64,000 bases of DNA, taken from the NCBI GenBank assembly GCA_977017645.1, contig OZ360230.1, positions 61,194,001 through 61,258,000 on the forward strand, written 5' to 3'. The notes under the pieces are model-generated. The model worked only from the letters and a program-made list of their open reading frames with translations, ran no database searches and had not been told where the DNA came from. Below are positions 5,955-57,854 of the stretch, piece by piece. Numbering within the stretch: the stretch's first letter is position 1; each line of letters opens with the position of its first letter. Both the position numbers and the translations under genes were made by a program. Origin of the DNA: Torpedo marmorata. Taxonomy: Eukaryota.

Positions 5955-6202
5955 CAGGACTTTATGGCCTTTCATGATTGAAATAGTGTTGTTATGTACA
6001 GACACATGTACAGAATTCACCCAGGACACTTTAGTGTTGGTACCTCTGTGCTCATTTGTTGCTGACACATCAAAGTAAGGAAGGCCTGAAGCTTCACTGC
6101 ACAGCTTAGAGAGGAGGTATGTGCAAGTTCCCATGAAGTGATGAACACGTGAGTCAAAAGTATTATAATGAGGATCTCCTGAAGCACTGCATGTGGCACG
6201 AC
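5955..6202 (-). CDS. Exon after the array: N-terminal half of a divergent 16th VWD domain
   Basis: tctgtag|GT...CTG|gtatgt. Translates (G)RATCSASGDPHYNTFDSRVHHFMGTCTYLLSKLCSEASGLPYFDVSATNEHRG...GHKVL. Phase 1 to 0, like exon 1 of each unit. Confidence 0.9.
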
Positions 6203-9200: not shown

Positions 9201-12200
9201 TGTGGAAGCTCTGGAGAGGATGCAGAGGAGATTTACCAGAATGTTGCCTGGATTAGAAAATAAGTCTTATGAGGCAAGGTTAGCAGAGCTGGGACATTTT
9301 CTCTTTGGAGCGTAGAAGGATGAGAGGAGACTTAATAGAGGTCTACAAGATTATGAGAAACATAGATAGGGTGGACAGCCAGCGCCTTTTTCCCAGGGCA
9401 GGAATAGCAAACACCAGAGGACACATGTACAAGGTGAAGGGAATGAAGTTTAGGGGAGACATCAGCGGTAGGTTTTTTTTACACAGAGAGTTGTGGGTGC
9501 CTGGAATGCCTTGCCAGGGATGGTGGTGGAGGCTGAAAAATTAGGGGCATATAAGAGACTCTTGGACAGGCACATGGATGGAAGAAAAATACAGGGTTAC
9601 GGGGTAGGGAGGGTTCAGTACTTTTTTAAAGGAATATATGGATAGGTACAACATCGAGGGCTGAATGGCCTGTACTGTACTGTAGGGTTCTACGTTCTAA
9701 GGAATAGCGATCATCGGCATTAAATACAATGGTGGTGTCAATATTGTCTACGTTTAAGAAACACTGCCAAAGGAGATACCATATATGTTAGACCAACCTC
9801 CATGAATTTCTGCCATTCTTAAGACTCCAATGTAAAAGAGCAACATGAAAGCCGCACATCACCTTCACATTGCATTCCTTTACCTGTATGCTCAGGCATC
9901 ATGGTACTGGCTGTCGTTGAGATGCTCGTGGTGGTTGTTATACCACACCCCTCTGCAGGAAAAAGAAGGAAAAGGATCAGAAGATCTTAACTTTTCAAAG
10001 ATCAATATGTGGTCACGCTTCCAGCCTTTCGAAGCATGGAAAAACAAAAGAACCGCGGTATTATGGGAGAAATGCCGATCTTAGGCACTAAATACAATAA
10101 TGGCGTCAGTATTGATTACATTTAAAAAATACTGCCAAAGGAGGTACCATACATGTCAGACCAACCTTCACAACATCCTACGTGGAAGGAAATGTCATCC
10201 ACAGCCACATCACTCCGATAGTCATTACCCCGGACTGCTTCAAGAAGGATCTGTCCAAAAAGTATCACAATATCAGAAGGAAACAATGGCAATAGCATCA
10301 TTCGAGCACCCTGCTCTCAAGAGAAAATAGAAAAACAGAGGCACATAACAGGTTATAAACCTTAACAAAATTTGTCCAGGGGAAAGATATTGTAATGATG
10401 TTCAAAAGTTAATTGCTAATTGTTCAAGGTCTGCTCGCACAAGGCAATGAAATGTATGAAAGAATGCAACATAGAGACTGGTGAGAGGCCTTGGTCATGT
10501 CACTTCAAAGAGCTATAAGATTCCAAACACAAGGTCAAAAAGTTGAATGAAAAGGCATGCAGCATTCTGTCCGTTATTGGCTGCCAGTTATATGAGCAGC
10601 AAGGTGATGCGTGAACTGTCAGCAACACCAGTAAGAACACTGCTCGTATACTCTGCACAGTTCTCATCACATCACACCAAAGATATGATTGCACTGGAGA
10701 ATGTGTAAGGAACATTGAGAAAGGCATTGCCAGGACAGGAAAGTTGTGGTTATGAGGAAAACATAAACAAACTAGGACTGTTTGCAGCAGAGGAGGGTGA
10801 GGGTAGCTAATTGAGATCTATCAATATGTTAAGACAATGCACAGGACAAAGAAAAGGACCTCCTCAGTGCAAGAGCCATAAGTTTAATGTAACTGGCTAA
10901 AAGATGAGAGGCGATATGAAAAAAACATTTCTCCCAGAGGATGGCACAAAACGGGAACTCGACTACTGCAAGGAGAATAGACATTGCTGCAAATACACTC
11001 TGCCACAAATAAAAATAACTCCACGTCTTCGGTCCCATAAAGGCATTGAAAGGAGGAGATCCAGTGTGTACTTTACGTGATTAAGTTGATATACCTAATC
11101 GAATCGCCAAGACAAAGACTCCAAATGAGGATATACGATTAATCAACAGGAGCAGGGAGAGGAAGAACAGAAAACATTCCCTGTCAATGGAATGCTGGTG
11201 CTGCAATGAAGCCTTGAAAAGGCGTGATTGGATGTCAGTGCCAGTCAGCGTGGACATTCATTCAGCTCCAAGGAGAATAGCAGAAGAAACCTTCAGCACA
11301 TTGAAACAGTACTAACAGAGTTGTGACTTTCAGGAACTTCCAGAGTTTGGTTGGTCATTTCCAATCACCAGAAGACACAATGTGCCTAAAGGCCTCCACC
11401 ATTTCTTCTCCAAGATTTCTATAAAAGGGATCTCTTGAATATTATTCATGAAGTTTACCTGAGAATGTCCAGAGAGGTAAAGGTCTACTTCTCCTGCAAT
11501 CCATCTGTTTCCCTGATTTCCTGACTCAGACCACTTTAGGACTGCTGCCCCTTGATCAACCTGGTAAACGTTCAGCGCCATGTTTTGAGCTACTCCATAC
11601 ATGTGGTACCAGAATCGCATGCACTGAGCTCCTCTCTTTACACATGGAGCGCTGACCAACTGAGCTCGATCTCCTGGTTTGCCATCATTGCCTTCAAGGT
11701 AAATGTAGTAGCCACCTGCGCACACAAGAAGCTTTATTGCTTACAAAGAAATCAGCTGCACAGTGGCGAGATACAAATCTCACATCACCTACCCGCAGTG
11801 GTGTGGTCAAACGCTGGTCCTGTATTAAACGATGGCGTCGACCCACTGATGCGTTTCCAGTCCAAAGTATCGGTCTTGGATTGGTTCCAACGGCACAGGT
11901 CACTATCAAAGTTACAATCCAATGCACAACCTGTGGGTTTCGTCAAGACAGGTCAGTTGTGTGAATACACCCAGCCACAGGTAGAAATAACTCCAACATG
12001 TCACTTGCACTCTTCAAACAAACTCACATGCAACTCAGGGATACCTACAGGCTTGCGATTTGAAGGGAAACCCTGCTTTACTGATTTCCCGCATTTCAAC
12101 ATTGATGACATGCAGAAATAAAACAGAGGAAAGGAGTAAGATATCAAACTTACTTTTCTCAAAACAGCCACTCTGCTGCCTCCAGTCTCCGAGCACAACA

Positions 12201-15200
12201 CCAGCTGCTTCACAGGCTGAAGCATAAGACTCCAGAGTGTTGCACAACTGCACAGAATCTCCGCCGGTGACACAATGATCGTAGACACAGCTTGCAAAGT
12301 ATAGCTGAGGTGGGATATGCCAGTGACAATCTTTAAATGGACCAGGGTTCGCCAAAACAATTTTGCAGTACCTCTCAGCCTCTTCTTGTGATGGAGAATC
12401 GCATGTCGGTGGATCAGGAGCAGTTTGATTACACCTGTGCAACAGAAACAATCTCTCACTTTTTTCAAATGGGAATGGTCTCTCATTCTACTTTATCCTC
12501 TGCAGAGCAGAATGAAGGTTGCAGGAGGGGTAGGGGTCTGGGCGGATAGAAAACACAGGGGCGTCAAATATTAAAGGAGGCACATGCTTCCTGCACGCAA
12601 CTGAAAAGACTGAAATACATCCTGAAAGCAACGCTGGAAACAGTTCTTCAGTTCTTCGCCGTGTGCTGATGTCGTTCATGAGAACAATACACAGGAGTTG
12701 ATTTGGAAACCTTCTTGAAATCTCTGCATTGTCCCTACATACCCTCACATCACCCAACCTTACCACTTGCTTTAATTATTGCAACAACTATTCTCTCACT
12801 CGATGCAAGAAATCTTAGCATTTACATTAACAGAAATACACGACAGAAAAACTCACAGCCAATCATCATCAGCAACCGCCCAACTGTTTCCAAACTGATT
12901 GGAATCCAAGGCTAGAATTCCGTCAGGTTTCAAGAAGTCATCCAGCTGGTCATTGGTGTAGGTCCCGCACAAGCCACACAGCTGTCCTTTGTATCTCTCA
13001 TCCACAACGACAACAAGTTGATGATCTCCGTCAAACTTCACCTGAAGACCAAAGTCCGTCTCCAACAGAACAAAGGATCCTTCCAACGTCACTTTCACTG
13101 AAGAAATGGGTCTCACAGGGAGCTCAACCCTCACTCCATCAACCTAAGCAAACACATTACCAAGTGAACAAACACAGAATCACAAACATCCCAGCTATCG
13201 CACATTAAAACATCAAATCAATGCAGAAACATTTGCTCTTCGCTATATAATACTTACATAAACCTTCTTATATTTCCGCAGTGCAATATGAAGGTTGTCA
13301 AGATGCAAGCCAACTGAATTAATGGCAGACCATGTTGGACTACCTCTGTGTTCATTTCTACTTGTCAAAGAAAATCGAACAGATGTATTTCCGCAAGTCT
13401 CGGTCACCGTATAATTGCAGGCACCCTGGAAGTGGTACAGCTTCCCATCAAATGTTGTATAGTGCGGGTCACCATAGATGTGGCAAATTGCTGTGTCTGC
13501 GCTGTAACATCCCCAATTGCCGCCCTGCACTTTGCAAATTTCCCCCGCTCCACAAGATCCTGGCTCGCATTCCACTCGGTTATTCCCAGTGCAGCGGCAC
13601 CTTTCTACACATCCGTCTTCCCAGAACATTGCACCTTTCTGACACACAAACAGCAAACATTATTTTCACAATGGCCACATGGTGAAAAGGAAGCAGAACC
13701 TTGTTTTCCGAGAAACCAGAGCGCTCCGCAAACCCTTGTCACTCACCTCGTAGTATTTGTTGTTGTGCGTGCAGCCACAGTTCTCAACAGGCACACATGA
13801 GCTTCCACTCAGGACAAAGCCAGCGTTACACTCACAGTCCTCCACACAAGGTTCACTGCAGTTAGCTGAAGCAGAACGGTCAGTGCAAGTGGTTGGACAA
13901 GCACTGGCACAGGCATTGTAATGACTATTGGCTGGGCACCTGACAGCTGAAAGCAGACAAGGAACAAGATATTTTACACTCGAGTTAAAAGTATTCTCTG
14001 ACACAATCTTGGACAAATCCTCAGACAGGCCAATGTGGCACCAACCACATTTGGAGCTGGCTAACACCTACCACAGAAAGTGGAGTTCCTCCACGGCAGA
14101 TTGGTCACTCCTGCGCTTTGGCAGGCATCTGCATAGATTTGCAGGCTATTACACAAAGCCTCTTGGTCTCCATCCAACAAGCACAGTTCAACAACGCAAC
14201 TTTCAAAGATGCCATGGGCGTTGATTACCGAGTGGCAATTTACAAATGGCCCCTGTTGACTGGTGATCAGGCCACAGAACTCATCACTTCGGTAGCGGGC
14301 CTCGTCAGCGGGCTGACACTCTTCTGCCTCGTCTGGGTCACAACCTGGCTCGTCAGGTGGCACCTTCCAGCTATTTCCCAGTTCGTTGGAATCTTTCGCT
14401 TGCTCTCCATCAGGTTTCATGTAATCATCCTCTCTCATTCCATTGTAGTTACCGCACATACCACAAGTCCGATTAAAGTACGTGCTCGGCACCTTCACTT
14501 CCACTGAGTGATCCGTGTCGTAAGAAACATGCAGGCCAAAGTCAGTGGACAGCACCACGTACCTTCCGCTCCTCCTCACACTCACGGCACCTTCAGCAAG
14601 CCGAACAGGTAAGGTCGTCCACACTTCATCAACCTGAGCACAAGAGCAAATCCTGCTTTATCCAACATTCTTCCTATCACAGCACTGCAACCACGCACTC
14701 CGTGCACCAAGCAAACTCCAGCAACAATGCAAACAATCACTGCAATTGACCCATCATTACATTAGGCATCACTTTTCTGCACCTTCAGATACATTCAGAA
14801 CATTTTCTTCTCATTAGGAAACAAACTGGAAATGCTATGAGAATTCAACTCTCTTATTTACAAATTGTAGGAATAAACTTATAGGTTTTTTTTCCCCACA
14901 CCAAGTGCCTCATTAATTTCTCCCTGAGAATATATGAGAAGAAAAAAAGTAACTACTGGTAATTAAAAACCGTGATGAAGGTGGCGACTTTTTACCATCC
15001 AGGTTACTTTATCTTTCTTCATACTTTTCTTTTATTTCTTTTCCTTTCTTTTCTTTCTTTTTTTCTGGGGTTTTGGTTTGGGGGGAGGGAGGGCCGGGAC
15101 TTACCCATCGTGTATAAGCAATGTAATAATAATGAATTGATTTCTTGTTATGTATTATACAATTATGCATGTTTGGATAAAAAAATTTAAATAAAATATT

Positions 15201-18200
15201 CATTAAAAAATCAACTCTCTTCCGTTACACTGCACTGTACCTTCTTACTCACTCATATTTTCAATTACAAAGAAAACACTTCACACAGCTCACGATTCCA
15301 AATTCAGGATTGGTAGAAAGTGCAGGTCTCAGCCTGACAGTCACAAGCTTACCAATACACGGTGAGGTTCCATCTTGACAATCCAAACCTTGTGGTCACG
15401 AACAGCGACCTGAACTTTCTGAACATAAGATACTTTAGGGTTGCCACGGTTTTCATTTTTTGCTTCAATGTTGAAGTGTAGAAGAGAGGAGGAATTTCCG
15501 CACAGCTTGGCTATCGTATAGGTACAGCTACCCATAAAATGGAGCGTCGCTTTGTCAAAAGTGTTGTAATGCGGATCATTGTGGATTCTGCAGATTCCGT
15601 ACGTGTATGGGTAGCAACCAGGGACTCCGTTCACAACTCCACAGTATGAATCTCGGGAACACGTTGAATTCGAGCACACCATTTGACTGCCTGCTGAAGG
15701 ACATCGACACTGAGTTGAACAGGTATCATCGGTCCAGAATTCAGAGCCCACTGGGTAGTGCTTTCCTTCAGACCAGCAGCCACACTGTTGTTTTGGCACA
15801 CATCTGTCATTGTAGAAAAGGTAACCATCGTCACATACACAGCCTTCCACGCATGGTTGCAAGCAGCTGGATGGAGCACTTGGACTGACACAAGTAGCTG
15901 GGCAAGCTGAGCCACACTGCTCATAATGACTATTCGCTCCACATTTTAGGGCTGTGAAGAGAACCCATAAAGTGGCATGTTAATTTCCTATGAAATTCCT
16001 TCCATCAACACTCAGCTCAAATCAGATTGATCAATAATTTCTGATGGCTTCCACTCGCCACAAAGTGGCATTGAAGCATCTGGCAGATCATTCTCAAGCA
16101 CTTACGGCAAAAGGTCTCATTCCTCCAGCCTTCCACTTTGGCCCCCTCTGACTGGCACGCATCTCCATACGACTCCAAACTACTGCACAGAGACTCTGTC
16201 TCCGTGCCTAATGCGCAAAGGTCGTACACACAATCATCAAAATAAACCTCCGGGTCTATTTTGGAGTGGCACCCTTTGAAAGGACCATGCAAATCCATGA
16301 TTATCCCACAGTACTGGTTACTTTCGATGATTCGCTTTTCCTCACTCGTGCAATTTGGCCTGATGCCATCGTCAGGAGTACACCTGGAAAAACAGCAGCA
16401 TCCCAAATGAGAAATAGGTTAACGCAACAGCAAAACTCTGCAAGCAAGTAGCACAGTGATGAACGTTAGAGATATGACAGCTTTCAAAGGAAGGGGAAAT
16501 TCCCCACAGCTTGGTTACAATGTACCTTGTGTCATTTTGAGTCTGCCAGCTGTTGCCCAAGCTGACGGAATCAGGCTCCATTATTCCATCCGGATTCAGA
16601 AAATCATCTCTTCTGTCGTCATTATAGTTTCCGCAGAGTCCACACACCTTGCCCTTGAAAGGACTGGGGAGAGTTACCTCAGCTCGGTGCCTGCCATTAA
16701 ACTTCACTCGCAATCCAAAACTGGTGGTAATGACTACATACTGTCCAGACAGAGCAACGAGAACTTCTGAGGTGACTGACACGGGTAGAACTGCCACTTC
16801 CCCATCAACCTGCAAACAGACAAATCACTCATCAATTGATTCTCCTGCCAACACACATTTCAATGCACCCGATGAAGACGCTTAGCATATCCAACCCTTA
16901 CCTTTACAACACGCCCTTTTCCGAGCATGATTCTGTGATTGAAAACCTCAACCGTGACATGTCTGACGTATGACACGTGGGCATTTCCTGATCTGTGCTC
17001 ATTTTCAGCTTCAACGTTGAAATAGGGCAGTCTGTCGTTTGTACTGCACAGTTTTGATAAGGTATACGTGCATGTTCCCATAAAGTCGTGAGCTTGCTTA
17101 TCAAAGCTCATGTAATGAGGATCTCCTTGCACTATGCAGGATGATTCTGAAAGTGGAGAAATAAAAAATAATATGTGGAATGTCAGTTAGTAATATACAA
17201 CCCATTGACAAGGATGTTGACAAGCTATGATTAAGAGGAAAGTTACAGTTTATTTCACAGGTGAAGGTCAGGGAAGAATAAACTTGTGTATCAAATAATT
17301 TTTGCACTAACACCTCCCTCAGCAACTGCCATGTGCTCTATGAGATAGAGATTTTAAGAAACTGGTAGAAAGCAGAGAGGTCTAATACAATGAATATCTT
17401 TCACCCAGAGGGTGGAATTTGGGGATCTGGAACGTAATACCTTCCAAAAGTAGTTGGTGCAGGCACAGACCCTCACCAACTTAGAAGGGGATAGAATATG
17501 CAGGCAAATTGCTTTGACCTAGAAACCTACAGTCTTGTAACTGGAACCAGCAATAGGATATGAAGTTGCTTCATTGTCGAGCCCACGAGGGACCGAATGA
17601 AGCTTTCTATGCCATGAATTTCTGCCATTCTTAAGACTCCAATGTAAAAGAGCAACATGAAGGCCCCACATCACCTTCACATTGCATTCCTTTACCTGTA
17701 TGCACAGGCATCGTGGTACTGGCTGTCGTTGAGATGCTCGTGGTGGTTGTTATACCACACCCCTCTGCAAGAAAAAGAAGGAACAGGATCAGAAGATCTT
17801 ACCTTTCAATATGTGGTCACGCTTCCAGCCTTTCGAAGCATGGAAAAACAAGAGAACCGCGGTATTATGGGAGAAATGCCGATCTTAGGCACTAAATACA
17901 ATAATGGCGTCAGTATTGATTACATTTAAAAAATACTGCCAAAGGAGATACCATACATGTCAGACCAACCTTCACAACATCCTACGTGGAAGGAAATGTC
18001 ATCCACAGCTACATCACTCCGGTAGTCATTTCCCCGGACTGCTTCAAGAAGGATCTGTCAGAGAAAGTAACACAATATCAGAAGGAAATAATGTCAATTG
18101 CATCATTCGAGCACCCTGCTGGCATTAGATAATAGAAAAAAAAGGCACACAACCAGTCACAGATCTTAACAAAACATGTTCAGGGAAAACAAATCTTAAT

Positions 18201-21200
18201 ACTGTTCAAAATTATAACTGCTAATTGCTCATGATCTTCTGGCACAAAGACAAGGGAAAGCATGACACTGCATTTTGGGCAACAGAAAAGAAAATGGAAT
18301 TTCTACCAAAGAAGTGTGTTGATACATTTAGCCAGCGAGTACAAGGCAATTCAATGTATTAAAGAATGCAGCGGAGTGACTGGAGAGAGGAACAAAAAGG
18401 CCTTGGAGTGTTACATCAAAGATTTTGAAAGTTTTAAACACAGATCAAAAAGGCATGCAGCATTCTGTCCGTTATTGGCTGCCAGTTATATGAGCAGCAA
18501 GGTGATGCGTAAACTGTCAGCAACACCAGTAAAAACACTGCTCGTATACTCGTATACTCTGCACAGTTCTCATCACATCACACCAAAGATATGATTGCAC
18601 TGGAGAATGTGTAAGGAACATTGAGAAAGGCATTGCCAGGACGGGAAAGTTGTGGTTATGAGGAAAACATAAACAAACTAGGGCTGTTTGCAGCGGAGGA
18701 GGGTGAAGGTAGCTAATTGAGATCTATCAATATGTTAAGACAATGGACAGGACAAAGAAAAGGACCTCCTCAGTGCAAGAGTCATAAGTTTAATGTAACT
18801 GGCTAAAAGATGAGAGGCGATATGAAAAAAACATTTCTCCCAGAGGATGGCACAAAACGAAAACTCGCCTACTGCAAGGAGAATAGATATTGCTGCAAAT
18901 ACACTCTGCCACAAATAAAAATAACTCCACGTCTTCGGTCCCATAAAGGCATTGAAAGGAGGAGATCCAGTGTGTACTTTACGTGATTAAGTTGATATAC
19001 CTAATCGAATCGCCAAGACAAAGACTCCAAATGAGGATATACGATTAATCAACAGGAGCAGGGAGAGGAAGAACAGAAAACATTCCCTGTCAATGGAATG
19101 CTGGTGCTGCAATGAAGCCTTGAAAAGGCGTGATTGGATGTCAGTGCCAGTCAGCGTGGACATTCATTCAGCTCCAAGGAGAATAGCAGAAGAAACCTTC
19201 AGCACATTGAAACAGTACTAACAGAGTTGTGACTTTCAGGAACTTCCAGAGTTTGGTTGGTCATTTCCAATCACCAGAAGACACAATGTGCCTAAAGGCC
19301 TCCACCATTTCTTCTCCAAGATTTCTATAAAAGGGATCTCTTGAATATTATTCATGAAGTTTACCTGAGAATGTCCAGAGAGGTAAAGGTCTACTTCTCC
19401 TGCAATCCATCTGTTTCCCTGATTTCCTGACTCAGACCACTTTAGGACTGCTGCCCCTTGATCAACCTGGTAAACGTTCAGCGCCATGTTTTGAGCTACT
19501 CCATACATGTGGTACCAGAATCGCATGCACTGAGCTCCTCTCTTTACACATGGAGCGCTGACCAACTGAGCTCGATCTCCTGGTTTGCCATCATTGCCTT
19601 CAAGGTAAATGTAGTAGCCACCTGCGCACACAAGAAGCTTTATTGCTTACAAAGAAATCAGCTGCACAGTGGCGAGATACAAATCTCACATCACCTACCC
19701 GCAGTGGTGTGGTCAAACGCTGGTCCTGTATTAAACGATGGCGTCGACCCACTGATGCGTTTCCAGTCCAAAGTATCGGTCTTGGATTGGTTCCAACGGC
19801 ACAGGTCACTATCAAAGTTACAATCCAATGCACAACCTGTGGGTTTCGTCAAGACAGGTCAGTTGTGTGAATACACCCAGCCACAGGTAGAAATAACTCC
19901 AACATGTCACTTGCACTCTTCAAACAAACTCACATGCAACTCAGGGATACCTACAGGCTTGCGATTTGAAGGGAAACCCTGCTTTACTGATTTCCCGCAT
20001 TTCAACATTGATGACATGCAGAAATAAAACAGAGGAAAGGAGTAAGATATCAAACTTACTTTTCTCAAAACAGCCACTCTGCTGCCTCCAGTCTCCGAGC
20101 ACAACACCAGCTGCTTCACAGGCTGAAGCATAAGACTCCAGAGTGTTGCACAACTGCACGGAATCTCCGCCGGTGACACAATGATCGTAGACACAGCTTG
20201 CAAAGTATAGCTGAGGTGGGATATGCCAGTGACAATCTTTAAATGGACCAGGGTTCGCCAAAACAATTTTGCAGTACCTCTCAGCCTCTTCTTGTGATGG
20301 AGAATCGCATGTCGGTGGATCAGGAGCAGTTTGATTACACCTGTGCAACAGAAACAATCTCTCACTTTTTTCAAATGGGAATGGTCTCTCATTCTACTTT
20401 ATCCTCTGCAGAGCAGAATGAAGGTTGCAGGAGGGGTAGGGGTCTGGGCGGATAGAAAACACAGGGGCGTCAAATATTAAAGGAGGCACATGCTTCCTGC
20501 ACGCAACTGAAAAGACTGAAATACATCCTGAAAGCAACGCTGGAAACAGTTCTTCAGTTCTTCGCCGTGTGCTGATGTCGTTCATGAGAACAATACACAG
20601 GAGTTGATTTGGAAACCTTCTTGAAATCTCTGCATTGTCCCTACATACCCTCACATCACCCAACCTTACCACTTGCTTTAATTATTGCAACAACTATTCT
20701 CTCACTCGATGCAAGAAATCTTAGCATTTACATTAACAGAAATACACGACAGAAAAACTCACAGCCAATCATCATCAGCAACCGCCCAACTGTTTCCAAA
20801 CTGATTGGAATCCAAGGCTAGAATTCCGTCAGGTTTCAAGAAGTCATCCAGCTGGTCATTGGTGTAGGTCCCGCACAAGCCACACAGCTGTCCTTTGTAT
20901 CTCTCATCCACAACGACAACAAGTTGATGATCTCCGTCAAACTTCACCTGAAGACCAAAGTCCGTCTCCAACAGAACAAAGGATCCTTCCAACGTCACTT
21001 TCACTGAAGAAATGGGTCTCACAGGGAGCTCAACCCTCACTCCATCAACCTAAGCAAACACATTACCAAGTGAACAAACACAGAATCACAAACATCCCAG
21101 CTATCGCACATTAAAACATCAAATCAATGCAGAAACATTTGCTCTTCGCTATATAATACTTACATAAACCTTCTTATATTTCCGCAGTGCAATATGAAGG

Positions 21201-42200: not shown

Positions 42201-45200
42201 GTTATATGAGCAGCAAGGTGATGCGTAAACTGTCAGCAACACCAGTAAAAACACTGCTCGTATACTCGTATACTCTGCACAGTTCTCATCACATCACACC
42301 AAAGATATGATTGCACTGGAGAATGTGTAAGGAACATTGAGAAAGGCATTGCCAGGACGGGAAAGTTGTGGTTATGAGGAAAACATAAATAAACTAGGGC
42401 TGTTTGCAGCGGAGGAGGGTGAAGGTAGCTAATTGAGATCTATCAATATGTTAAGACAATGGACAGGACAAAGAAAAGGACCTCCTCAGTGCAAGAGTCA
42501 TAAGTTTAATGTAACTGGCTAAAAGATGAGAGGCGATATGAAAAAAACATTTCTCCCAGAGGATGGCACAAAACGGAAACTCGCCTACTGCAAGGAGAAT
42601 AGATATTGCTGCAAATACACTCTGCCACAAATAAAAATAACTCCACGTCTTCGGTCCCATAAAGGCATTGAAAGGAGGAGATCCAGTGTGTACTTTACGT
42701 GATTAAGTTGATATACCTAATCGAATCGCCAAGACAAAGACTCCAAATGAGGATATACGATTAATCAACAGGAGCAGGGAGAGGAAGAACAGAAAACATT
42801 CCCTGTCAATGGAATGCTGGTGCTGCAATGAAGCCTTGAAAAGGCGTGATTGGATGTCAGTGCCAGTCAGCGTGGACATTCATTCAGCTCCAAGGAGAAT
42901 AGCAGAAGAAACCTTCAGCACATTGAAACAGTACTAACAGAGTTGTGACTTTCAGGAACTTCCAGAGTTTGGTTGGTCATTTCCAATCACCAGAAGACAC
43001 AATGTGCCTAAAGGCCTCCACCATTTCTTCTCCAAGATTTCTATAAAAGGGATCTCTTGAATATTATTCATGAAGTTTACCTGAGAATGTCCAGAGAGGT
43101 AAAGGTCTACTTCTCCTGCAATCCATCTGTTTCCCTGATTTCCTGACTCAGACCACTTTAGGACTGCTGCCCCTTGATCAACCTGGTAAACGTTCAGCGC
43201 CATGTTTTGAGCTACTCCATACATGTGGTACCAGAATCGCATGCACTGAGCTCCTCTCTTTACACACGGAGCGCTGACCAACTGAGCTCGATCTCCTGGT
43301 TTGCCATCATTGCCTTCAAGGTAAATGTAGTAGCCACCTGCGCACACAAGAAGCTTTATTGCTTACAAAGAAATCAGCTGCACAGTGGCGAGATACGAAT
43401 CTCACATCACCTACCCGCAGTGGTGTGGTCAAACGCTGGTCCTGTATTAAACGATGGCGTCGACCCACTGATGCGTTTCCAGTCCAAAGTATCGGTCTTG
43501 GATTGGTTCCAACGGCACAGGTCACTATCAAAGTTACAATCCAATGCACAACCTGTGGGTTTCGTCAAGACAGGTCAGTTGTGTGAATACACCCAGCCAC
43601 AGGTAGAAATAAGTCCAACATGTCACTTGCACTCTTCAAACAAACTCACATGCAACTCAGGGATACCTACAGGCTTGCGATTTGAAGGGAAACCCTGCTT
43701 TACTGATTTCCCGCATTTCAACATTGATGACATGCAGAAATAAAACAGAGGAAAGGAGTAAGATATCAAACTTACTTTTCTCAAAACAGCCACTCTGCTG
43801 CCTCCAGTCTCCGAGCACAACACCAGCTGCTTCACAGGCTGAAGCATAAGACTCCAGAGTGTTGCACAACTGCACGGAATCTCCGCCGGTGACACAATGA
43901 TCGTAGACACAGCTTGCAAAGTATAGCTGAGGTGGGATATGCCAGTGACAATCTTTAAATGGACCAGGGTTCGCCAAAACAATTTTGCAGTACCTCTCAG
44001 CCTCTTCTTGTGATGGAGAATCGCATGTCGGTGGATCAGGAGCAGTTTGATTACACCTGTGCAACAGAAACAATCTCTCACTTTTTTCAAATGGGAATGG
44101 TCTCTCATTCTACTTTATCCTCTGCAGAGCAGAATGAAGGTTGCAGGAGGGGTAGGGGTCTGGGCGGATAGAAAACACAGGGGCGTCAAATATTAAAGGA
44201 GGCACATGCTTCCTGCACGCAACTGAAAAGACTGAAATACATCCTGAAAGCAACGCTGGAAACAGTTCTTCAGTTCTTCGCCGTGTGCTGATGTCGTTCA
44301 TGAGAACAATACACAGGAGTTGATTTGGAAACCTTCTTGAAATCTCTGCATTGTCCCTACATACCCTCACATCACCCAACCTTACCACTTGCTTTAATTA
44401 TTGCAACAACTATTCTCTCACTCGATGCAAGAAATCTTAGCATTTACATTAACAGAAATACACGACAGAAAAACTCACAGCCAATCATCATCAGCAACCG
44501 CCCAACTGTTTCCAAACTGATTGGAATCCAAGGCTAGAATTCCGTCAGGTTTCAAGAAGTCATCCAGCTGGTCATTGGTGTAGGTCCCGCACAAGCCACA
44601 CAGCTGTCCTTTGTATCTCTCATCCACAACGACAACAAGTTGATGATCTCCGTCAAACTTCACCTGAAGACCAAAGTCCGTCTCCAACAGAACAAAGGAT
44701 CCTTCCAACGTCACTTTCACTGAAGAAATGGGTCTCACAGGGAGCTCAACCCTCACTCCATCAACCTAAGCAAACACATTACCAAGTGAACAAACACAGA
44801 ATCACAAACATCCCAGCTATCGCACATTAAAACATCAAATCAATGCAGAAACATTTGCTCTTCGCTATATAATACTTACATAAACCTTCTTATATTTCCG
44901 CAGTGCAATATGAAGGTTGTCAAGATGCAAGCCAACTGAATTAATGGCAGACCATGTTGGACTACCTCTGTGTTCATTTCTACTTGTCAAAGAAAATCGA
45001 ACAGATGTATTTCCGCAAGTCTCGGTCACCGTATAATTGCAGGCACCCTGGAAGTGGTACAGCTTCCCATCAAATGTTGTATAGTGCGGGTCACCATAGA
45101 TGTGGCAAATTGCTGTGTCTGCGCTGTAACATCCCCAATTGCCGCCCTGCACTTTGCAAATTTCCCCCGCTCCACAAGATCCTGGCTCGCATTCCACTCG

Positions 45201-48200
45201 GTTATTCCCAGTGCAGCGGCACCTTTCTACACATCCGTCTTCCCAGAACATTGCACCTTTCTGACACACAAACAGCAAACATTATTTTCACAATGGCCAC
45301 ATGGTGAAAAGGAAGCAGAACCTTGTTTTCCGAGAAACCAGAGCGCTCCGCAAACCCTTGTCACTCACCTCGTAGTATTTGTTGTTGTGCGTGCAGCCAC
45401 AGTTCTCAACAGGCACACATGAGCTTCCACTCAGGACAAAGCCAGCGTTACACTCACAGTCCTCCACACAAGGTTCACTGCAGTTAGCTGAAGCAGAACG
45501 GTCAGTGCAAGTGGTTGGACAAGCACTGGCACAGGCATTGTAATGACTATTGGCTGGGCACCTGACAGCTGAAAGCAGACAAGGAACAAGATATTTTACA
45601 CTCGAGTTAAAAGTATTCTCTGACACAATCTTGGACAAATCCTCAGACAGGCCAATGTGGCACCAACCACATTTGGAGCTGGCTAACACCTACCACAGAA
45701 AGTGGAGTTCCTCCACGGCAGATTGGTCACTCCTGCGCTTTGGCAGGCATCTGCATAGATTTGCAGGCTATTACACAAAGCCTCTTGGTCTCCATCCAAC
45801 AAGCACAGTTCAACAACGCAACTTTCAAAGATGCCATGGGCGTTGATTACCGAGTGGCAATTTACAAATGGCCCCTGTTGACTGGTGATCAGGCCACAGA
45901 ACTCATCACTTCGGTAGCGGGCCTCGTCAGCGGGCTGACACTCTTCTGCCTCGTCTGGGTCACAACCTGGCTCGTCAGGTGGCACCTTCCAGCTATTTCC
46001 CAGTTCGTTGGAATCTTTCGCTTGCTCTCCATCAGGTTTCATGTAATCATCCTCTCTCATTCCATTGTAGTTACCGCACATACCACAAGTCCGATTAAAG
46101 TACGTGCTCGGCACCTTCACTTCCACTGAGTGATCCGTGTCGTAAGAAACATGCAGGCCAAAGTCAGTGGACAGCACCACGTACCTTCCGCTCCTCCTCA
46201 CACTCACGGCACCTTCAGCAAGCCGAACAGGTAAGGTCGTCCACACTTCATCAACCTGAGCACAAGAGCAAATCCTGCTTTATCCAACATTCTTCCTATC
46301 ACAGCACTGCAACCACGCACTCCGTGCACCAAGCAAACTCCAGCAACAATGCAAACAATCACTGCAATTGACCCATCATTACATTAGGCATCACTTTTCT
46401 GCACATACAGATACATTCAGAACATTTTCTTCTCATTAGGAAACAAACTGGAAATGCTACGAGAATTCAACTCTCCTCCGCTACACTGCACTGTACCTTC
46501 TTACTCACTCATATTTTCAATTACAAAGAACGCACAGCTCACGATTCCAAATTCAGGATTGGTAGAAAGTGCAGGACTCAGCCTGACAGTCACAAGCTTA
46601 CCAATACACGGTGAGGTTCCATCTTGACAATCCAAACCTTGTGGTCACGAACAGCGACCTGAACTTTCTGAACATAAGATACTTTAGGGTTGCCACGGTT
46701 TTCATTTTTTGCTTCAATGTTGAAGTGTGGAAGAGAGGAGGAATTTCCGCACAGCTTGGCTATCGTATAGGTACAGCTACCCATAAAATGGAGCATCGCT
46801 TTGTCAAACGTGTTGTAATGCGGATCATTGTGGATTCTGCAGATTCCGTACGTGTATGGGTAGCAACCAGGGACTCCGTTCACAACTCCACAGTATGAAT
46901 CTCGGGAACACGTTGAATTCGAGCACACCATTTGACTGCCTGCTGAAGGACATCGACACTGAGTTGAACAGGTATCATCGGTCCAGAATTCAGAGCCCAC
47001 TGGGTAGTGCTTTCCTTCAGACCAGCAGCCACACTGTTGTTTTGGCACACATCTGTCATTGTAGAAAAGGTAACCATCGTCACATACACAGCCTTCCACG
47101 CATGGTTGCAAGCAGCTGGATGGAGCACTTGGACTGACACAAGTAGCTGGGCAAGCTGAGCCACACTGCTCATAATGACTATTTGCTCCACATTTTAGGG
47201 CTGTGAAGAGAACCCATAAAGTGACACGTTAATTTCCTATGAAATTCCTTCCATCAACACTCAGCTCAAATTAGATTTTTAAAAAAAATATTTTATTTAA
47301 AATTTTAAATCACAAAATACATAAGTTAAATTGTAAAATTGTCAAAATACATGTGATACATTTTCATCCCCCCTGCCTCCCTCCCCTCCAACCCCTTCTA
47401 ATAAAAAGAAAAAGAAAGAAAAAGATAGTATTAGGAGAATGTCAATCTCAAAAATACATCAATAACTAATTTTATTATGTAGGATAGGTTTGCCAGTCAG
47501 ATCCAATGTCCAGAGATCTTCAAATCCTTAAACCAACAACCTTCATATGAGGGCTCCATATTTTCAAAAAGAAATGATATTTATTACGTAAATTATAAGT
47601 AATTTTTTTCAAGTGGTATACAAGAACGAAGTTGTGCATGCCATCTTTCTAACCCTAAATCTACATCAGATTTCCAAGTAATAGCAATACATTTCTTAGA
47701 AACAGCTAAAGCGATTCGCAAAAATTCTATTTGATACATATTTAATTTCATCTTAATACTAACTCTTTTAATATCTCCAAAAAAAAAATCACATGGTCCA
47801 TTGGGAATGTAATTTTTAATACTTTATCAAAAATTTTTTAACTTTCAACCAAAAATCATAAATTTTTGGACAGAACCATGTAGAATGTACAAAAGAACCT
47901 TCCTCTCTATTACATCTAAAACATAAGCCTGATAATGTCGCGTTAAATTTCTTTAACTTTTTAGGTGTTAAATATAATTGTAAAAAAAAAATATTTTATT
48001 TAAAATTATAAATCACAAAATACATAAGATAAAATTATAAAATTATCAAAATACATGTGATATATTTTCACCCCCCCCTCCCACCCTCACCTCCCTAACC
48101 CTCCCATCCCTACTAATCTAATAAAATAAAATAAAATTTTAAAAAAAGAAAAAAGATAGAATAAGGAGAATGTCAATCTAAAAATACATCTATAAACTAA

Positions 48201-51200
48201 TTCTATTATGGAGGTTAGGTTCGCCAGTAGATCCAATATCCAGAGATTTTCAAATTCTTAAACCAACAACTTTCATATATGGGCTCCAAATTTTTAAAAA
48301 GAAATGATACTTATTACGTAAATTATAAGTAATTTTTTCAAGTGGTATACATGAACGAAGTTCTGCATGCCATCTTTCTAATCCTAAATATAAATCAGAT
48401 TTCCAAGTAATAGCAATACATTTCTTTGAAACAGCTAAAGCAATTTGCAAAAATTCTGTTTGATACATGTTTAATTTCATCTTAATACTAAATTTTCTAA
48501 TATCTCCGAACAAAAATATCATAGGATCCATTGGAAATATAATCTTAAATACTTTATCTAAAAATTGTTTAACTTTCAACCAAAAATCATAAACTTTTGG
48601 ACAAAACCATGTAGAATGTACAAAAGAACCTTCCTCTTTATTACATCTAAAACATAAACCTGATAATGTCGGATTAAATTTCTTTAATTTTTTAGGTGTT
48701 AAATATAATTGATGAAAAAAATTATATTGTACTAATCTATATCTGACATTAATAATCTTCGTCATACTTAATTTACATAATTCTTTCCAATGATTTTCAT
48801 CTATTGTTACATTCAAATCTAATTCCACTTTAGTCTTGATTTATGAATTCCTACTTTAGGAACTTTTCTCTGAAACAATTTATACATTTGAGAGATAAAT
48901 TTATTTACATCTCCTTTAGTAACTAATAATTCTAATTCATTCTGTCTTGGTAAAATCAAACTATAACCTAATTTCCCAACCAAAAATGCTCTAATCTGAT
49001 AATAAGCAAAAAGTGTATTATCCAACACATTAAATTTATCTTTCATTCTTTGAAAAGTAATAAATTTCCCAGCTTCAAAACAGTCATTTATTTTCTTAAT
49101 TCCTTTTAGAAACCAAATTTTAAATAATTGATTATTAATAGTAAATGGAATAAGTTCATTTTGATAAAGAGGCATCTTTGGAGAAATAGATCCTTTACCT
49201 CCTATTTCCTTATCCGTTTTGTTCCATATTTCTAACAAATGTTTAAAGATAGGAGAATTTTTCTTTCTTGTAGATATTAATTTAGAATCCCATTTATAAA
49301 TAACTACTTCTTTAAAATCTTCTCCTATATTATTTAATTCTATTCTAATCCAAGCAGAAGATTTAGTTAAATCAAAAAGCTCATTAACAAATTTTAATTG
49401 AGCTGCTTTATAATAATTTTGAAAATTAGGAAGTTGTAAACCGCCCATTTCATAATTCCAAGTTAATTTTTTTATACCTACCCTTGCCAACTTTCCTTTC
49501 CATAAAAATTTCCTAATAATTGAATTTAAATCTTTAAAACATTTTTGAGGTATTTCATAAGGAATTGATTGGAAAAGATATTGAATTCTTGGAAAAACAT
49601 TCATTTTAATACAATTTACCCTTCCCATTAAAGTTATAGGTAAATCTTTCCAATTTTCTAAATCTTTTTTAATTTTCATAAACAATGGTAGATAATTTAA
49701 TTAGAATGTAAAAATGGTAAATAATTTATATAAATTAGCTAATTTTGTGTCAATCTTTATTCCCAAATATTTAATTCCTTCTTTTGCCCATTTAAATTGT
49801 GTAATTTCTTTACATTTACTATAATCCCCTTGCGTTAATGCCATAATTTCACTTTTGTCAGAATTAATCTTATAGCCAGATATTTCCCCGTATTCTCTCA
49901 ATAAAGCAGTCAATTGTATTAAAGAAGTAATAGGTTTTGTCATATAAATCATTACATCATCTGCAAATAAACTAATTTTATGCTCTTCTCTTCCGATTTT
50001 AATACCTGCAATCTTAATATCTTGTCTAATTAATTCTGCCAAAGGTTCTATTGCTAAAGTAAACAATGCTGGTGACAAAGAACATCCTTGTCTAGTTGAC
50101 CTAGTCAAAGGAAATTTTGAAGAAATTTGTCCATTTGTGACCACTTTAGCAGATGGTTCTTTATATATAGTTTTAATCCAATTAATAAATGTAGTTCCAA
50201 AACAAAATTTCTCCAATACCTTAAATAAATAATTCCACTCTAATCTATCAAAAGCCTTTTCAGCATCTAACGTTAATACTAATGCTAAATCATCCTTCTT
50301 TTTATCCACATTAATTAAACTAATTCATCTAGCTATATTGAAGCATCTGGCAGATCATTCTCAAGCACTTACGGCAAAAGGTCTCATTCCTCCAGCCTTC
50401 CACTTTGGCCCCCTCTGACTGGCACGCATCTCCATACGACTCCAAACTACTGCACAGAGACTCTGTCTCCGTGCCTAATGCGCAAAGGTCGTACACACAA
50501 TCATCAAAATAAACCTCCGGGTCTATTTTGGAGTGGCACTCTTTGAAAGGACCATGCAAATCCATGATTATCCCACAGTACTGGTTACTTTCGATGATTC
50601 GCTTTTCCTCGCTCGTGCAATTTGGCCTGATGCCATCGTCAGGAGTACACCTGGAAAAACAGCAGCATCCCAAATGAGAAATAGGTTAACGCAACAGCAA
50701 AACTCTGCAAGCAAGTAGCACAGTGATGAACGTTAGAGATTTGACAGCTTTCAAAGGAAGGAGAAATTCCCCACAGCTTGGTTACAATGTACCTTGTGTC
50801 ATTTTGAGTCTGCCAGCTGTTGCCCAAGCTGACGGAATCAGGCTCCATTATTCCATCCGGATTCAGAAAATCATCTCTTCTGTCGTCATTATAGTTTCCG
50901 CAGAGTCCACACACCTTGCCCTTGAAAGGACTGGGGAGAGTTACCTCAGCTCGGTGCCTGCCATTAAACTTCACTCGCAATCCAAAACTGGTGGTAATGA
51001 CTACATACTGTCCAGACAGAGCAACGAGAACTTCTGAGGTGACTGACACGGGTAGAACTGCCACTTCCCCATCAACCTGCAAACAGACAAATCACTCATC
51101 AATTGATTCTCCTGCCAACACACATTTCAATGCACCCGATGAAGACGCTTAGCATATCCAACCCTTACCTTTACAACACGCCCTTTTCCGAGCATGATTC

Positions 51201-51413
51201 TGTGATTGAAAACCTCAACCGTGACATGTCTGACGTATGACACGTGGGCATTTCCTGATCTGTGCTCATTTTCAGCTTCAACATTGAAATAGGGCAGTCT
51301 GTCGTTCGTACTGCACAGTTTTGATAAGGTATACGTGCATGTTCCCATAAAGTCGTGAGCTTGCTTATCAAAGCTCATGTAATGAGGATCTCCTTGCACT
51401 ATGCAGGATGATT
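5955..51413 (-). CDS. Giant FCGBP/zonadhesin-like secreted glycoprotein gene, partial: 66 exons in window, 5x[VWD-C8-TIL-E, VWD-C8-TIL-E, VWD-C8, MAM, Thr/Ser linker] plus one further VWD exon
   Basis: Minus-strand ORFs carry GDPHY/NDPHY, CGLCGNYN/CGMCGNYN, C8 (FxxCH..C..D.C...C..L..Y...C), TIL (C.ANSHY..C...CP.TC...C..PC.EGC.C) and MAM motifs. Exons delimited by hand have canonical AG/GT ends and compatible phases. The 5' and 3' ends were not found in the window. The orthology assignment (FCGBP-like vs ZAN-like) needs a phylogeny. Confidence 0.9.
7017..7373 (-). mobile_element. Solo LTR (probably Gypsy-type), 357 bp
   Basis: TGTAGCG...CGCTACA inverted termini; 4-bp TSD gtat (7013-7016 and 7374-7377); CpG-rich; minus-strand TATAAAA at 7146-7152 with upstream CCAAT and GC boxes. 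Confidence 0.85.
7555..9700 (+). mobile_element. 5'-truncated CR1 (HER1-like) LINE, fragmented ORF2
   Basis: DWRMANVVPLFKKG..NPGNYRPVSLTSV, GVPQGSVLGP, KFADDTK, RPHLEYCVQFWS; CR1-type 3' tail ...ggcctgtactgtactgtagggttctacgttcta. Confidence 0.92.
9884..9952 (-). CDS. Unit E exon 13: Thr/Ser-rich linker (EGCGITTTTSISTTASTMMPEHT)
   Basis: 69 nt, cctgcag|AG...ACAG|gtaaag, phase 1-1; not in the ORF track. Confidence 0.8.
9884..17146 (-). CDS. Repeat unit E (5th in transcription order), 13 exons, 1222 aa
   Basis: Exons 16902-17146, 16526-16809, 16106-16383, 15353-15951, 14072-14633, 13747-13946, 13258-13638, 12857-13143, 12154-12434, 11793-11930, 11459-11715, 10166-10250, 9884-9952; lengths sum to 3666 nt. 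Confidence 0.88.
10166..10250 (-). CDS. Unit E exon 12: MAM C-terminus (ILLEAVRGNDYRSDVAVDDISFHVGCCE)
   Basis: 85 nt, ggacag|ATC...GAAG|gttggt; matches the MAM C-terminal EAVRG...D.A.DDI motif. Confidence 0.85.
11459..11715 (-). CDS. Unit E exon 11: MAM core (GYYIYLEG...CMRFWYHMYG...W..SGNQGNRW)
   Basis: 257 nt, canonical splice sites, MAM consensus residues. Confidence 0.9.
11793..11930 (-). CDS. Unit E exon 10: MAM N-terminus (CALDCNFDSDLCRWNQ...TGPAFDHTT)
   Basis: 138 nt, phase 1-1; CxF(D/E)..xCxW and TGP..DHT MAM signature. Confidence 0.9.
12154..12434 (-). CDS. Unit E exon 9: C8 domain 3
   Basis: 281 nt; GPFKDCH...CVYDHC...LCNTLESYASAC...WR. Confidence 0.9.
12857..13143 (-). CDS. Unit E exon 8: VWD3 C-terminal half
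   Basis: 287 nt; VDGVRVELP...LCGLCGTY...FGNSW. Confidence 0.9.
13258..13638 (-). CDS. Unit E exon 7: E/TILa module and VWD3 N-terminal half (YGDPHY)
   Basis: 381 nt, phase 0-0. Confidence 0.9.
13747..13946 (-). CDS. Unit E exon 6: TIL domain
   Basis: 200 nt; CPANSHYNACASACPTTC...CVEDCEC..GFVLSG..CVP...CGC. Confidence 0.9.
14072..14633 (-). CDS. Unit E exon 5: VWD2 C-terminal half and C8 domain 2
   Basis: 562 nt; TCGMCGNYNG...GNSW...GPFVNCH...WRNSTFC. Confidence 0.9.
14856..15210 (+). mobile_element. L1 3'-end remnant in intron 4 of unit E; also at +7906, +15812 and +23716 in units D, C and B
   Basis: ORF2 end YLQIVGINL*, T-rich/G-rich UTR, aataaa and A tail; TSD tcaactctctt at 14845-14855 and 15211-15221; empty site in unit A at ~46467-46477. 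Confidence 0.8.
15353..15951 (-). CDS. Unit E exon 4: TIL, E/TILa and VWD2 N-terminal half (HNDPHY)
   Basis: 599 nt, phase 1 to 0. Confidence 0.9.
16106..16383 (-). CDS. Unit E exon 3: C8 domain 1
   Basis: 278 nt; GPFKGCH...DCVYDLC...WRNETFC. Confidence 0.9.
16526..16809 (-). CDS. Unit E exon 2: VWD1 C-terminal half
   Basis: 284 nt; VDGEV..LP...VCGLCGNYN...LGNSW. Confidence 0.9.
16902..17146 (-). CDS. Unit E exon 1: VWD1 N-terminal half (ESSCIVQGDPHY)
   Basis: 245 nt, ctttcag|AA...AAG|gtaagg. Confidence 0.9.
17696..25052 (-). CDS. Repeat unit D, 13 exons, 1222 aa
   Basis: Exons 24808-25052, 24432-24715, 24012-24289, 23259-23857, 21978-22539, 21653-21852, 21164-21544, 20763-21049, 20060-20340, 19699-19836, 19365-19621, 17970-18054, 17696-17764. 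Confidence 0.88.
25602..32958 (-). CDS. Repeat unit C, 13 exons, 1222 aa
   Basis: Exons 32714-32958, 32338-32621, 31918-32195, 31165-31763, 29884-30445, 29559-29758, 29070-29450, 28669-28955, 27966-28246, 27605-27742, 27271-27527, 25876-25960, 25602-25670 (by offset from the ORF track). Confidence 0.88.
33506..40862 (-). CDS. Repeat unit B, 13 exons, 1222 aa
   Basis: Exons 40618-40862, 40242-40525, 39822-40099, 39069-39667, 37788-38349, 37463-37662, 36974-37354, 36573-36859, 35870-36150, 35509-35646, 35175-35431, 33780-33864, 33506-33574. Confidence 0.88.
41412..51413 (-). CDS. Repeat unit A (first in transcription order), 13 exons, with a 3-kb L1 insertion in intron 3
   Basis: Exons 51169-51413, 50793-51076, 50373-50650, 46602-47200, 45694-46255, 45369-45568, 44880-45260, 44479-44765, 43776-44056, 43415-43552, 43081-43337, 41686-41770, 41412-41480. 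Confidence 0.87.
47278..47980 (-). mobile_element. Short 5'-truncated L1 copy (end of ORF2 plus 3'UTR)
   Basis: Paralogous to 47981-48710; A tail at the left end. Confidence 0.85.
47981..50336 (-). mobile_element. 5'-truncated L1-clade LINE, ORF2 RT to C-terminus with two frameshifts
   Basis: ORFs 49701-50309, 48819-49685 and 48250-48828 closely match 60051-62118. Confidence 0.92.
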
Positions 51414-51524
51414 CTGAAAGTGGAGAAATAAAAAATAATATGTGGAATGTCAGTTAGTAATATACAACCCATTGACAAGGATGTTGACAAGCTATGATTA
51501 AGAGGAAAGTTACAGTGTATTTCA

Positions 51525-51884
51525 CAGGTGAAGGTCAGGGAAGAATAAACTTGTGTATCAAATAATTTTTGCACTAACACCTCCCTCAGCAACTGCCATG
51601 TGCTCTATGAGATAGAGATTTTAAGAAACTGGTAGAAAGCAGAGAGGTCTAATACAATGAATATCTTTCACCCAGAGGGTGGAATTTGGGGATCTGGAAC
51701 GTAATACCTTCCAAAAGTAGTTGGTGCAGGCACAGACCCTCACCAACTTAAAAGGGGATAGAATATGCAGGCAAATTGCTTTGACCTAGAAACCTACAGT
51801 CTTGTAACTGGAACCAGCAATAGGATATGAGGTTGCTTCATTGTTATTTGATACACAAGTTTATTCTTCCCTGACCTTCACCTG
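51525..51884. repeat. Perfect 41-bp inverted repeat (51525-51565 / 51844-51884) at the array boundary
   Basis: caggtgaaggtcagggaagaataaacttgtgtatcaaataa and its reverse complement ttatttgatacacaagtttattcttccctgaccttcacctg. Confidence 0.95.
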
Positions 51885-53459: not shown

Positions 53460-54017
53460 ATCAAGTTCATTATCATCTGATTGTACAAGTACAACTCGAC
53501 GAAACAGCGTTCTCCGGTCCTCGGTGCAAAAAAATGTAAACACACACCCAGACATGAAACACATGCAAATGATACAGATGCAGTGCGTATCTATATATAT
53601 TGTTTAATAAATAGTAGAGTCTTGGAGTGTTTGTATGAGCAGTTCCTTTCAGTTGTTCAGCATTCTCACTGCCCGTGGGAAGAAACTGTTCCTCAGCCTG
53701 GTGGTGCTGGCTCTGATGTTCCTGTATCTCTTTCTCGATGGGAGCAGCTGAAAGATGCTGTGTGTGGGGTGGTAGGGGTCCCGAATGATTTTGCGAACCC
53801 TCTTCAGGCAACGATCCCAGTAGATCACGTTGATTGGGGGGAGGGGGGGAGGGAGACTCCAGTGATCCTCTCTGCCTCTCTTATGGTCCTGAGGATTGAC
53901 CTCTGATCCAATGCTCTACAGCAAATGAACCACACTTTGATGCAGCCGGCCAGGACGCTCTCGATAGAGCTCCTGTTGAAAGTTGACAGGATGGTGGCTG
54001 GTAGCCTTGCCCGCCTC
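53460..54017 (-). mobile_element. Rex1/Babar LINE 3' fragment
   Basis: Reverse complement resembles 1690-2000 plus 5424-5650 (..FQLLPS..RYR.IRA.TTRLRNSFFP.AVR.LN; tail gatgataatgaacttga). Confidence 0.75.
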
Positions 54018-57846: not shown

Positions 57847-57854
57847 AACTGGAG

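What the first reader, a model, noticed from the sequence alone, without database searches (positions are those of the whole stretch)
9800..51844. Very recent or homogenised 7.9-kb intragenic array: introns as conserved as exons, likely a copy-number-variable protein length
Seen: interior units differ at only scattered sites, introns included (for example one 2-bp deletion near 33056). Both ends are visibly more divergent (9800-11000 in unit E; 46400-51844 in unit A). Known: unequal crossing-over homogenises array interiors and spares the edges; coding VNTR-like arrays such as LPA KIV-2 behave this way. Inference: alleles probably differ by whole 1222-aa units.
Basis: partly seen in the sequence, partly recalled or inferred. 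Interest (0 to 1): 0.7.

Follow-up and report, generated by a model that had tools for sequence, protein, structure and literature searches.

The report
Old, homogenised repeat in ray gene
A large mucus-type protein gene of an electric-ray relative carries five near-identical 13-exon blocks, and relatives from sharks to birds carry matching blocks that are kept alike within each species, so this is an old, continually homogenised repeat rather than a new duplication.

Summary
The array is real: five head-to-tail units (period 7,904-7,906 bp) in a minus-strand gene, 13 exons and 1,222 codons per unit (three VWD assemblies, MAM, Thr linker), 6,192 codons without a stop. Interior units differ by 0.10-0.13%, introns and exons alike. 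The ends diverge mostly through two retroposon indels (unit A) and a short 20%-diverged intron piece (unit E). It is homogenised, not recent: contigs from two related organisms, 4-6% diverged, close on themselves across the same head-to-tail junction; derived letters and a 366-bp retroposon have spread through 4-5 of the window's units; and in a tree of named orthologues the units group by species (99-100% within, 55-94% to the window). The gene belongs to the MAM-interspersed FCGBP-like/zonadhesin-like family (93.5% to a Narcine protein that has two units). Known kind of phenomenon (human FCGBP, LPA); the depth in time of this one unit was not found in print.

The parts
9800..51844 (-). Intragenic tandem array: five copies of a 13-exon unit (exons c-m, a, b), 65 exons from 51413 to 9884
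41328..51844 (-). Unit A (5'-most): carries a private LINE in intron e and the empty site in intron f
33422..41327 (-). Unit B (interior)
25518..33421 (-). Unit C (interior; the 2-bp deletion at 33057/33058 lies in the intron upstream of its first exon)
17612..25517 (-). Unit D (interior)
9800..17611 (-). Unit E (3'-most), with stepwise diverged edge 9800-11000
17578..17611 (.). 34-bp junction-specific piece of intron b: the array's 5' limit (51844, equivalent to 17577) and 3' limit (9800, equivalent to 17612) flank it; repeated at the other three junctions
47278..50336 (-). AT-rich LINE insertion in intron e of unit A only (two tandem 5'-truncated pieces, broken RT frame, 41-bp target deletion, no duplication); 91% to the copy at 60049-62411
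14845..15210 (+). 366-bp retroposon tail with 10-bp target-site duplication in intron f of units B-E (E copy given); empty in unit A and in organisms B and C
51844..51884 (.). 41-bp perfect inverted copy of 51525-51565 at the array's 5' limit
9708..9799 (.). 92-bp direct copy (84%) of 10076-10167 at the array's 3' limit
5955..6202 (-). Single-copy downstream exon (first half of a different VWD, GDPH motif), in frame with unit E; 95% to residues 2544-2627 of the Narcine protein P0142

Best explanation
An old intragenic array in a MAM-interspersed FCGBP-like/zonadhesin-like gene of an electric-ray relative. The unit (VWD-C8-TIL-TILa x2, VWD-C8, MAM, Thr linker; about 134 kDa) starts and ends in the same exon phase, so whole units can be added or lost in frame. 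Misaligned pairing of the 7.9-kb units, resolved by unequal crossing-over and gene conversion, overwrites exons and introns alike, spreads new letters and insertions between neighbours, changes unit number, and works poorly at the array limits and beside large indels. Shown: structure, open frame, species-specific homogeneity, old junction, different unit numbers between genomes. Inferred: the recombination mechanism, polymorphism within the species, and a role as a long mucosal surface or mucus protein whose length and valency scale with unit number.
For: 66 GT-AG exons, 6,192 codons, no stop. Six introns are spliced out at the predicted places in organism C's RNA-like contig. A 7,536-bp contig of organism B and a 6,870-bp contig of organism C each run off the top of the unit and re-enter at its bottom, closing a cycle, at 4.3% and 5.9% from the window, against 0.10-0.13% between window units. 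At 11583 all five window units share a letter that all four laid runs lack; at 11214 and 11224 runs X1 and X5 agree against all five; at 18070 all four junction copies differ from X1, X5, X9. The 366-bp insertion is in 4 of 5 units and absent in organisms B and C. Shared variants mostly join neighbours (A,B | C,D,E; A,B,C | D,E); 11 of 13 interior changes are transitions. 36 of 43 orthologue-like long proteins have internal repeats at 90% or more, often at about 1,220 aa; in the tree the units of 6 of 6 named cartilaginous fishes with two or more copies group by species at 99.2-100%.
Against: No long reads or conspecific data, so five units and within-species variation are unproven. Contigs drop rare variants, so homogeneity inside organisms B and C is inferred from collapse. 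The orthologue list is biased to repeat-rich proteins (best 120 of 553 by summed score, 2,049-5,000 aa). Periods differ in some lineages (1,040, 1,140, 570 aa), and five birds keep two unit classes about 85% alike, so continuous homogenisation of one unit is not universal. The tree is the quick fallback and the window clade has support 94. The gene's 5' exons are not in the window.
Confidence: 0.8

Rival explanations
1. The repeat is real but the count of five is an assembly artefact, for example two haplotypes (2+3 units) laid end to end or extra copies from a mis-resolved graph.
For: Units differ by only 8-10 letters in 7.9 kb. In run X1 (about 1% from the window) unit contigs have depth 36.5-42 against 11.9-14 (one 20.1) on the flank, nearer three than five (the tool warns that depth is no copy number).
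Against: Each unit has private or neighbour-shared letters, 11 of 13 changes are transitions, there are no homopolymer slips, and several unit-specific letters (10768, 11645, 11775) recur in independent runs. X1 is a different genome, so its count need not match.
Confidence: 0.12
2. A very recent, lineage-specific tandem duplication of a single-copy 13-exon block.
For: 0.1% divergence; a perfect 41-bp inverted copy at the 5' limit looks like a young template switch; the two limits meet within 35 bp like one junction.
Against: The same junction sequence is bridged in organisms 4-6% away; the 3' edge is 20% diverged from its interior counterpart; orthologues across jawed vertebrates have the repeat. 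A recent increase from two to five units is allowed and is part of the best explanation.
Confidence: 0.03
3. The array sits in a 5'-broken gene: a rearrangement at 51844 cut off the signal peptide and first MAM exons, and the units drift neutrally.
For: No upstream MAM or VWD exon in 51885-64000; sharp limit with an inverted piece; 4 of 7 exonic interior changes are non-synonymous.
Against: No stop, frameshift or broken splice site in 66 exons; the flanking introns on the 3' side are also long (3.7 kb and over 5.9 kb), so a long first intron is ordinary; the orthologue is spliced in organism C.
Confidence: 0.05

Closest known systems
Zonadhesin-like / chicken FCGBP-like family with interspersed MAM domains (Hunt et al. 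2005, PMC1325057; read: abstract and three sections)
   Same: VWD assemblies in sets of three, MAM domains each followed by an O-glycosylated stretch; the paper notes chicken VWD1/4, 2/5, 3/6 pairing and gut expression of fish members. Window unit is 52-64% identical to bird, turtle and squamate proteins of this build and 76-94% to shark and ray ones.
   Different: The sections read report no near-identical units or homogenisation (the salmon gene showed no recent duplication). I could not confirm that the chicken accession named there is among my hits.
Human FCGBP (PMC8267560 passages; PMC4079513 passages)
   Same: A three-VWD block repeated three times in human and once in mouse; listed among long intragenic tandem duplications at 96% or more; GDPH sites.
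   Different: No MAM in the unit; has the FCGBP_N domain, which 7 of 7 scanned cartilaginous-fish orthologues lack; lineage-limited repeat. The 15.8-kb T2T/GRCh38 difference (PMC10320979, one passage) may be a reference error (10.64898/2026.07.27.740875, one passage), so it is not proof of CNV.
LPA kringle IV-2 array (recalled; named as a VNTR in PMC13755911, passage)
   Same: Multi-kb intragenic units with introns, near-identical, in-frame gain and loss.
   Different: Unit is one small domain in two exons (recalled), primate-limited, with proven CNV; here 13 exons, about 13 domains, CNV untested.
Mammalian zonadhesin ZAN and fish 'zonadhesin, like' (PMC9275260 passages)
   Same: MAM plus VWD content; some bird orthologues end in a transmembrane helix as ZAN does.
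   Different: ZAN has MAMs grouped at the N-terminus then mucin then D domains; proteins named 'zonadhesin, like' are only 40-44% identical to the window unit.

Membership tests
Concertedly evolving intragenic tandem array | Units more alike within a genome than between species | tested here: met
   0.10-0.13% within against 1.0%, 4.3%, 5.9% to three other organisms; species clades
Concertedly evolving intragenic tandem array | Tandem arrangement older than the species split | tested here: met
   Cyclic contigs across the junction in organisms B and C; two units in P0142
Concertedly evolving intragenic tandem array | Neutral (intron) sites homogenised with exons | tested here: met
   7/3,666 against 5/4,240, p = 0.56; retroposon spread to 4 of 5 units
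Coding copy-number variant (LPA KIV-2 type) | Alleles with different unit numbers within one species | not testable with these tools
   No conspecific or long-read run listed; closest run is about 1% diverged in the flank too
Coding copy-number variant (LPA KIV-2 type) | Unit gain or loss keeps the reading frame | tested here: met
   3,666 nt per unit, same phase at both ends
MAM-interspersed FCGBP-like / Zlg family | VWD-C8-TIL assemblies interrupted by MAM plus O-glycosylated linker | tested here: met
   Pfam on exon frames; Thr-rich linker exon
MAM-interspersed FCGBP-like / Zlg family | Expression in gut or mucosa | tested here: inconclusive
   Spliced contig in organism C, tissue not on record; none for the window's species
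FCGBP proper | N-terminal FCGBP_N domain (PMC4948705) | tested here: not met
   Absent in 7 of 7 scanned orthologues, one with an apparent signal peptide followed by MAM; the window's own N-terminus is outside the window
Zonadhesin (ZAN) | N-terminal MAM cluster, mucin, then D0-D4 | tested here: not met
   MAM recurs after every third VWD
Zonadhesin (ZAN) | Synteny with the AchE-Tfr2 region | not testable with these tools
   No genome held; no neighbouring gene seen in the window

The most novel reading that the evidence does not exclude
One 13-exon, about 1,220-residue unit has been kept as a homogenised, number-variable array in this gene since the last common ancestor of sharks and tetrapods, is length-polymorphic within living species, and its turnover keeps the unit's introns short and nearly free of retroposons inside a retroposon-rich locus. 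With at least 16 VWD domains the ray protein would exceed the 13 of human FCGBP, called the highest known in vertebrates in PMC8267560.
Probability: 0.4. Interest if true: 0.62.

Novelty: new member of a known kind. Interest (0 to 1): 0.45.

Why it matters
It gives a clean, datable case of concerted evolution inside a vertebrate gene, with built-in markers (two retroposon indels, neighbour-shared variants) for measuring how far and how fast homogenisation runs in a cartilaginous fish. A survey paper calls concerted evolution of domain repeats rare and lineage-limited (PMC5100051, passages); here it is the rule across a family, subject to sampling bias. It also warns that gene models and lengths of these proteins depend on how assemblies treat the array.

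Tried and rejected
Whole-protein self-BLAST for internal repeats gave 0 of 120 and 0 of 120; this was a method failure (off-diagonal hits are culled) and was replaced by chunked BLAST with the window as positive control. Tandem Repeats Finder sees only short periods and missed the array. The first whole-unit alignment and the per-intron alignments of introns e and f misaligned the large indels; those rows were not counted and were redone. No exon of the gene was found in 51885-64000 or 1-5954. No RNA holder was on record as RNA. X1 has no cover at 15366-15807, so the state of the 366-bp insertion there is unknown. Contig depth ratios (about 3-3.5 in X1, 3-4 in X5, 1.8 in X9) are kept as a weak hint only. 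In X10 the single-copy exon (345) and unit exons (320-380) have like depth, which says nothing on unit number. The careful tree did not finish. Earlier findings of the scan: nothing in three look-ups. Nine paper searches listed no paper on homogenisation of this unit; the library lacks most subscription journals and I opened no supplements. No structure or complex was predicted, as it would not bear on the question.
Full report
Observation. Self-comparison of the window shows a tandem array with a period of 7,904-7,906 bp, 99.4-99.8% identical from 10550 to 46475, with homology reaching 9800 and 51844. On the minus strand each unit has 13 exons, 3,666 nt, 1,222 codons. Five units and one further exon (6202-5955) give 66 exons, all GT-AG, and 6,192 codons with no stop. 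Pfam on exon frames gives VWD, C8, TIL, TILa and MAM: the unit is two full D assemblies, a VWD-C8, a MAM and a 23-residue Thr-rich linker, about 134 kDa with 86 cysteines. The VWD motifs run GDPH, NDPH, GDPH in every unit.

How alike the units are. B, C and D differ pairwise at 10, 8 and 9 letters (0.10-0.13%) and by one 2-bp intronic deletion at 33057/33058. Of the 12 variable sites, 7 lie in 3,666 exon nt (4 non-synonymous) and 5 in 4,240 intron nt (p = 0.56). Eleven of 13 changes are transitions. Shared variants mostly join neighbours (two sites split A,B from C,D,E; one splits A,B,C from D,E), with two mosaic sites.

The edges. Unit A is as alike as the interior over 41328-46300 (0.12%), 1.3% diverged over 46301-47277 and 0.6% over 50337-51844. 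Its apparent divergence is mostly two retroposon events: a private 3.06-kb LINE in intron e (47278-50336; 91% to a copy at 60049-62411 that bears an RT frame), and the absence of a 366-bp LINE tail with a 10-bp target duplication that B-E all carry in intron f. The most diverged stretch of A lies between these two indels, as expected if indels hinder local exchange (inference). Unit E steps from 0.14% to 2.7% to 20% and back to 2.7% towards its end. The two limits of homology fall within 35 bp of each other in the same intron, so the array is five whole units.

Recent or homogenised. I laid 4 of the 10 listed runs on 5200-18440. In organism B one 7,536-bp contig covers 11571-14844 and 15211-18440 and then re-enters at 10612-11569; in organism C one 6,870-bp contig does the same. 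Both bridge the head-to-tail junction, both lack the 366-bp insertion, and they are 4.3% and 5.9% from the window. Run X1 is about 1.0% away in unit and flank alike, so it is another genome, not the source. Among the 40 difference rows shown (910 more were not shown), 11583 has one letter in all five window units and another in all four runs; 11214 and 11224 set all five against X1 and X5; 18070 sets all four junction copies against X1, X5 and X9. Two further sites (11220, 12632) are equivocal because X9 shows no difference. So the tandem is older than 4-6% divergence while its units were equalised within less than 1%. An RNA-like contig of organism C skips 77, 223, 422, 114 and 108 nt and the intron at 13945-14072, matching six predicted introns.

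Relatives. An exon search found IgGFc-binding-like and zonadhesin-like proteins; a search for long relatives listed the best 120 of 553. The window unit is 93.5% identical to a Narcine bancroftii protein (Torpediniformes), 76-82% to other sharks and rays and 52-64% to coelacanth and tetrapods, so the window is from an electric-ray relative (inference). The Narcine protein has a leading MAM, two units and a diverged tail whose first exon matches 6202-5955 at 95%. With the corrected test, 36 of 43 orthologue-like proteins and 64 of 77 other long VWD proteins have three or more 200-residue pieces repeated internally at 90% or more; among the 120 shorter proteins 20 have two or more. In a quick tree of the second D assembly (56 rows: 20 proteins chosen by me plus the five window units), copies group by species in 6 of 6 named cartilaginous fishes with two or more copies (99.2-100% within, 78-94% to the window), and in a python, a soft-shelled turtle, a gecko, a frog and a tinamou. 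Five other birds keep two older classes about 85% alike and the two sea turtles mix. The list favours repeat-rich proteins and rests on predicted gene models.

How it works. Shown: an in-frame, phase-symmetric unit, species-specific homogeneity including introns, an old junction, and different unit numbers between genomes (five here, two in the named Narcine protein). Inferred: unequal crossing-over and conversion between misaligned units. For the protein, the family is gut-expressed in fish (PMC1325057, abstract and sections 5, 6, 13), GDPH sites in FCGBP are self-cleaved and stabilise the domain (PMC8267560 passages; PMC10880436 abstract), and 5 of 19 orthologues examined, all birds, end in a transmembrane helix (many models are incomplete). 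A long mucosal surface or mucus protein whose reach and valency scale with unit number is the likeliest reading; it is untested in this species.

What is open. Variation within the species was not testable. Depth of unit over flank is about 3-3.5 in X1, 3-4 in X5 and 1.8 in X9, but the tool states that this is no copy number; if taken at face value X1 argues either for fast turnover or for an over-assembled count here. The 5' exons are not within 12 kb of the array.

Comparison and verdict. This works like human FCGBP's repeated three-VWD block and like LPA KIV-2, but it is neither FCGBP proper (no FCGBP_N in 7 of 7 orthologues; definition from PMC4948705 passages) nor ZAN. It is a member of the MAM-interspersed family first noted in chicken and fish. 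Intragenic homogenised arrays are a known kind. That this unit is homogenised in parallel from rays to birds was not found in nine paper searches, and PMC5100051 (passages) treats such evolution as rare and does not mention VWD proteins. Interest 0.45.

Noticed in passing
window 9884-6203, below 5955, above 51413, against array introns: Introns inside the array are short (77-1,310 bp, mean 326) and hold one retroposon tail per unit, while the gene's introns just outside are 3.7 kb, over 5.9 kb and over 12.5 kb and full of LINE remains; turnover may purge insertions.
   Followed up: partly
window 51844-51884 and 9708-9799: Both limits of the array carry a short copy of nearby array sequence: 41 bp inverted and perfect at the 5' limit, 92 bp direct and 84% at the 3' limit.
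   Followed up: partly
window 2686-5033, 47278-50336, 59947-62411: Three copies of one AT-rich LINE family (80-91% alike); the last has a 723-codon open RT frame. The copy in unit A is sense to the gene and brings poly(A)-signal-like sequence into an intron.
   Followed up: partly
window 14845-15210: The 366-bp insertion belongs to a family with very high contig depth in X1 (38,196 in that bin) and far less in X5 (811) and X9 (66) at 90% likeness: a young, lineage-expanded retroposon.
   Followed up: no
protein P0152 (Amblyraja): This skate protein repeats a different unit (about 570 aa, MAM plus the downstream VWD) four times, so the amplified segment can shift between lineages.
   Followed up: no
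proteins P0135-P0239 named 'zonadhesin, like' and FCGBP-like: 64 of 77 more distant long VWD proteins also carry near-identical internal repeats with periods of about 380-2,300 aa; homogenised arrays seem general to the superfamily.
   Followed up: no
window 54523-55306, 56200-56700, 57869-58666: Several GC-rich dispersed repeat copies about 77% alike, without Pfam matches in the two frames scanned.
   Followed up: no
window 346-1013 and 7600-9700: Decayed reverse-transcriptase fragments of other LINE types (family names not tested).
   Followed up: no
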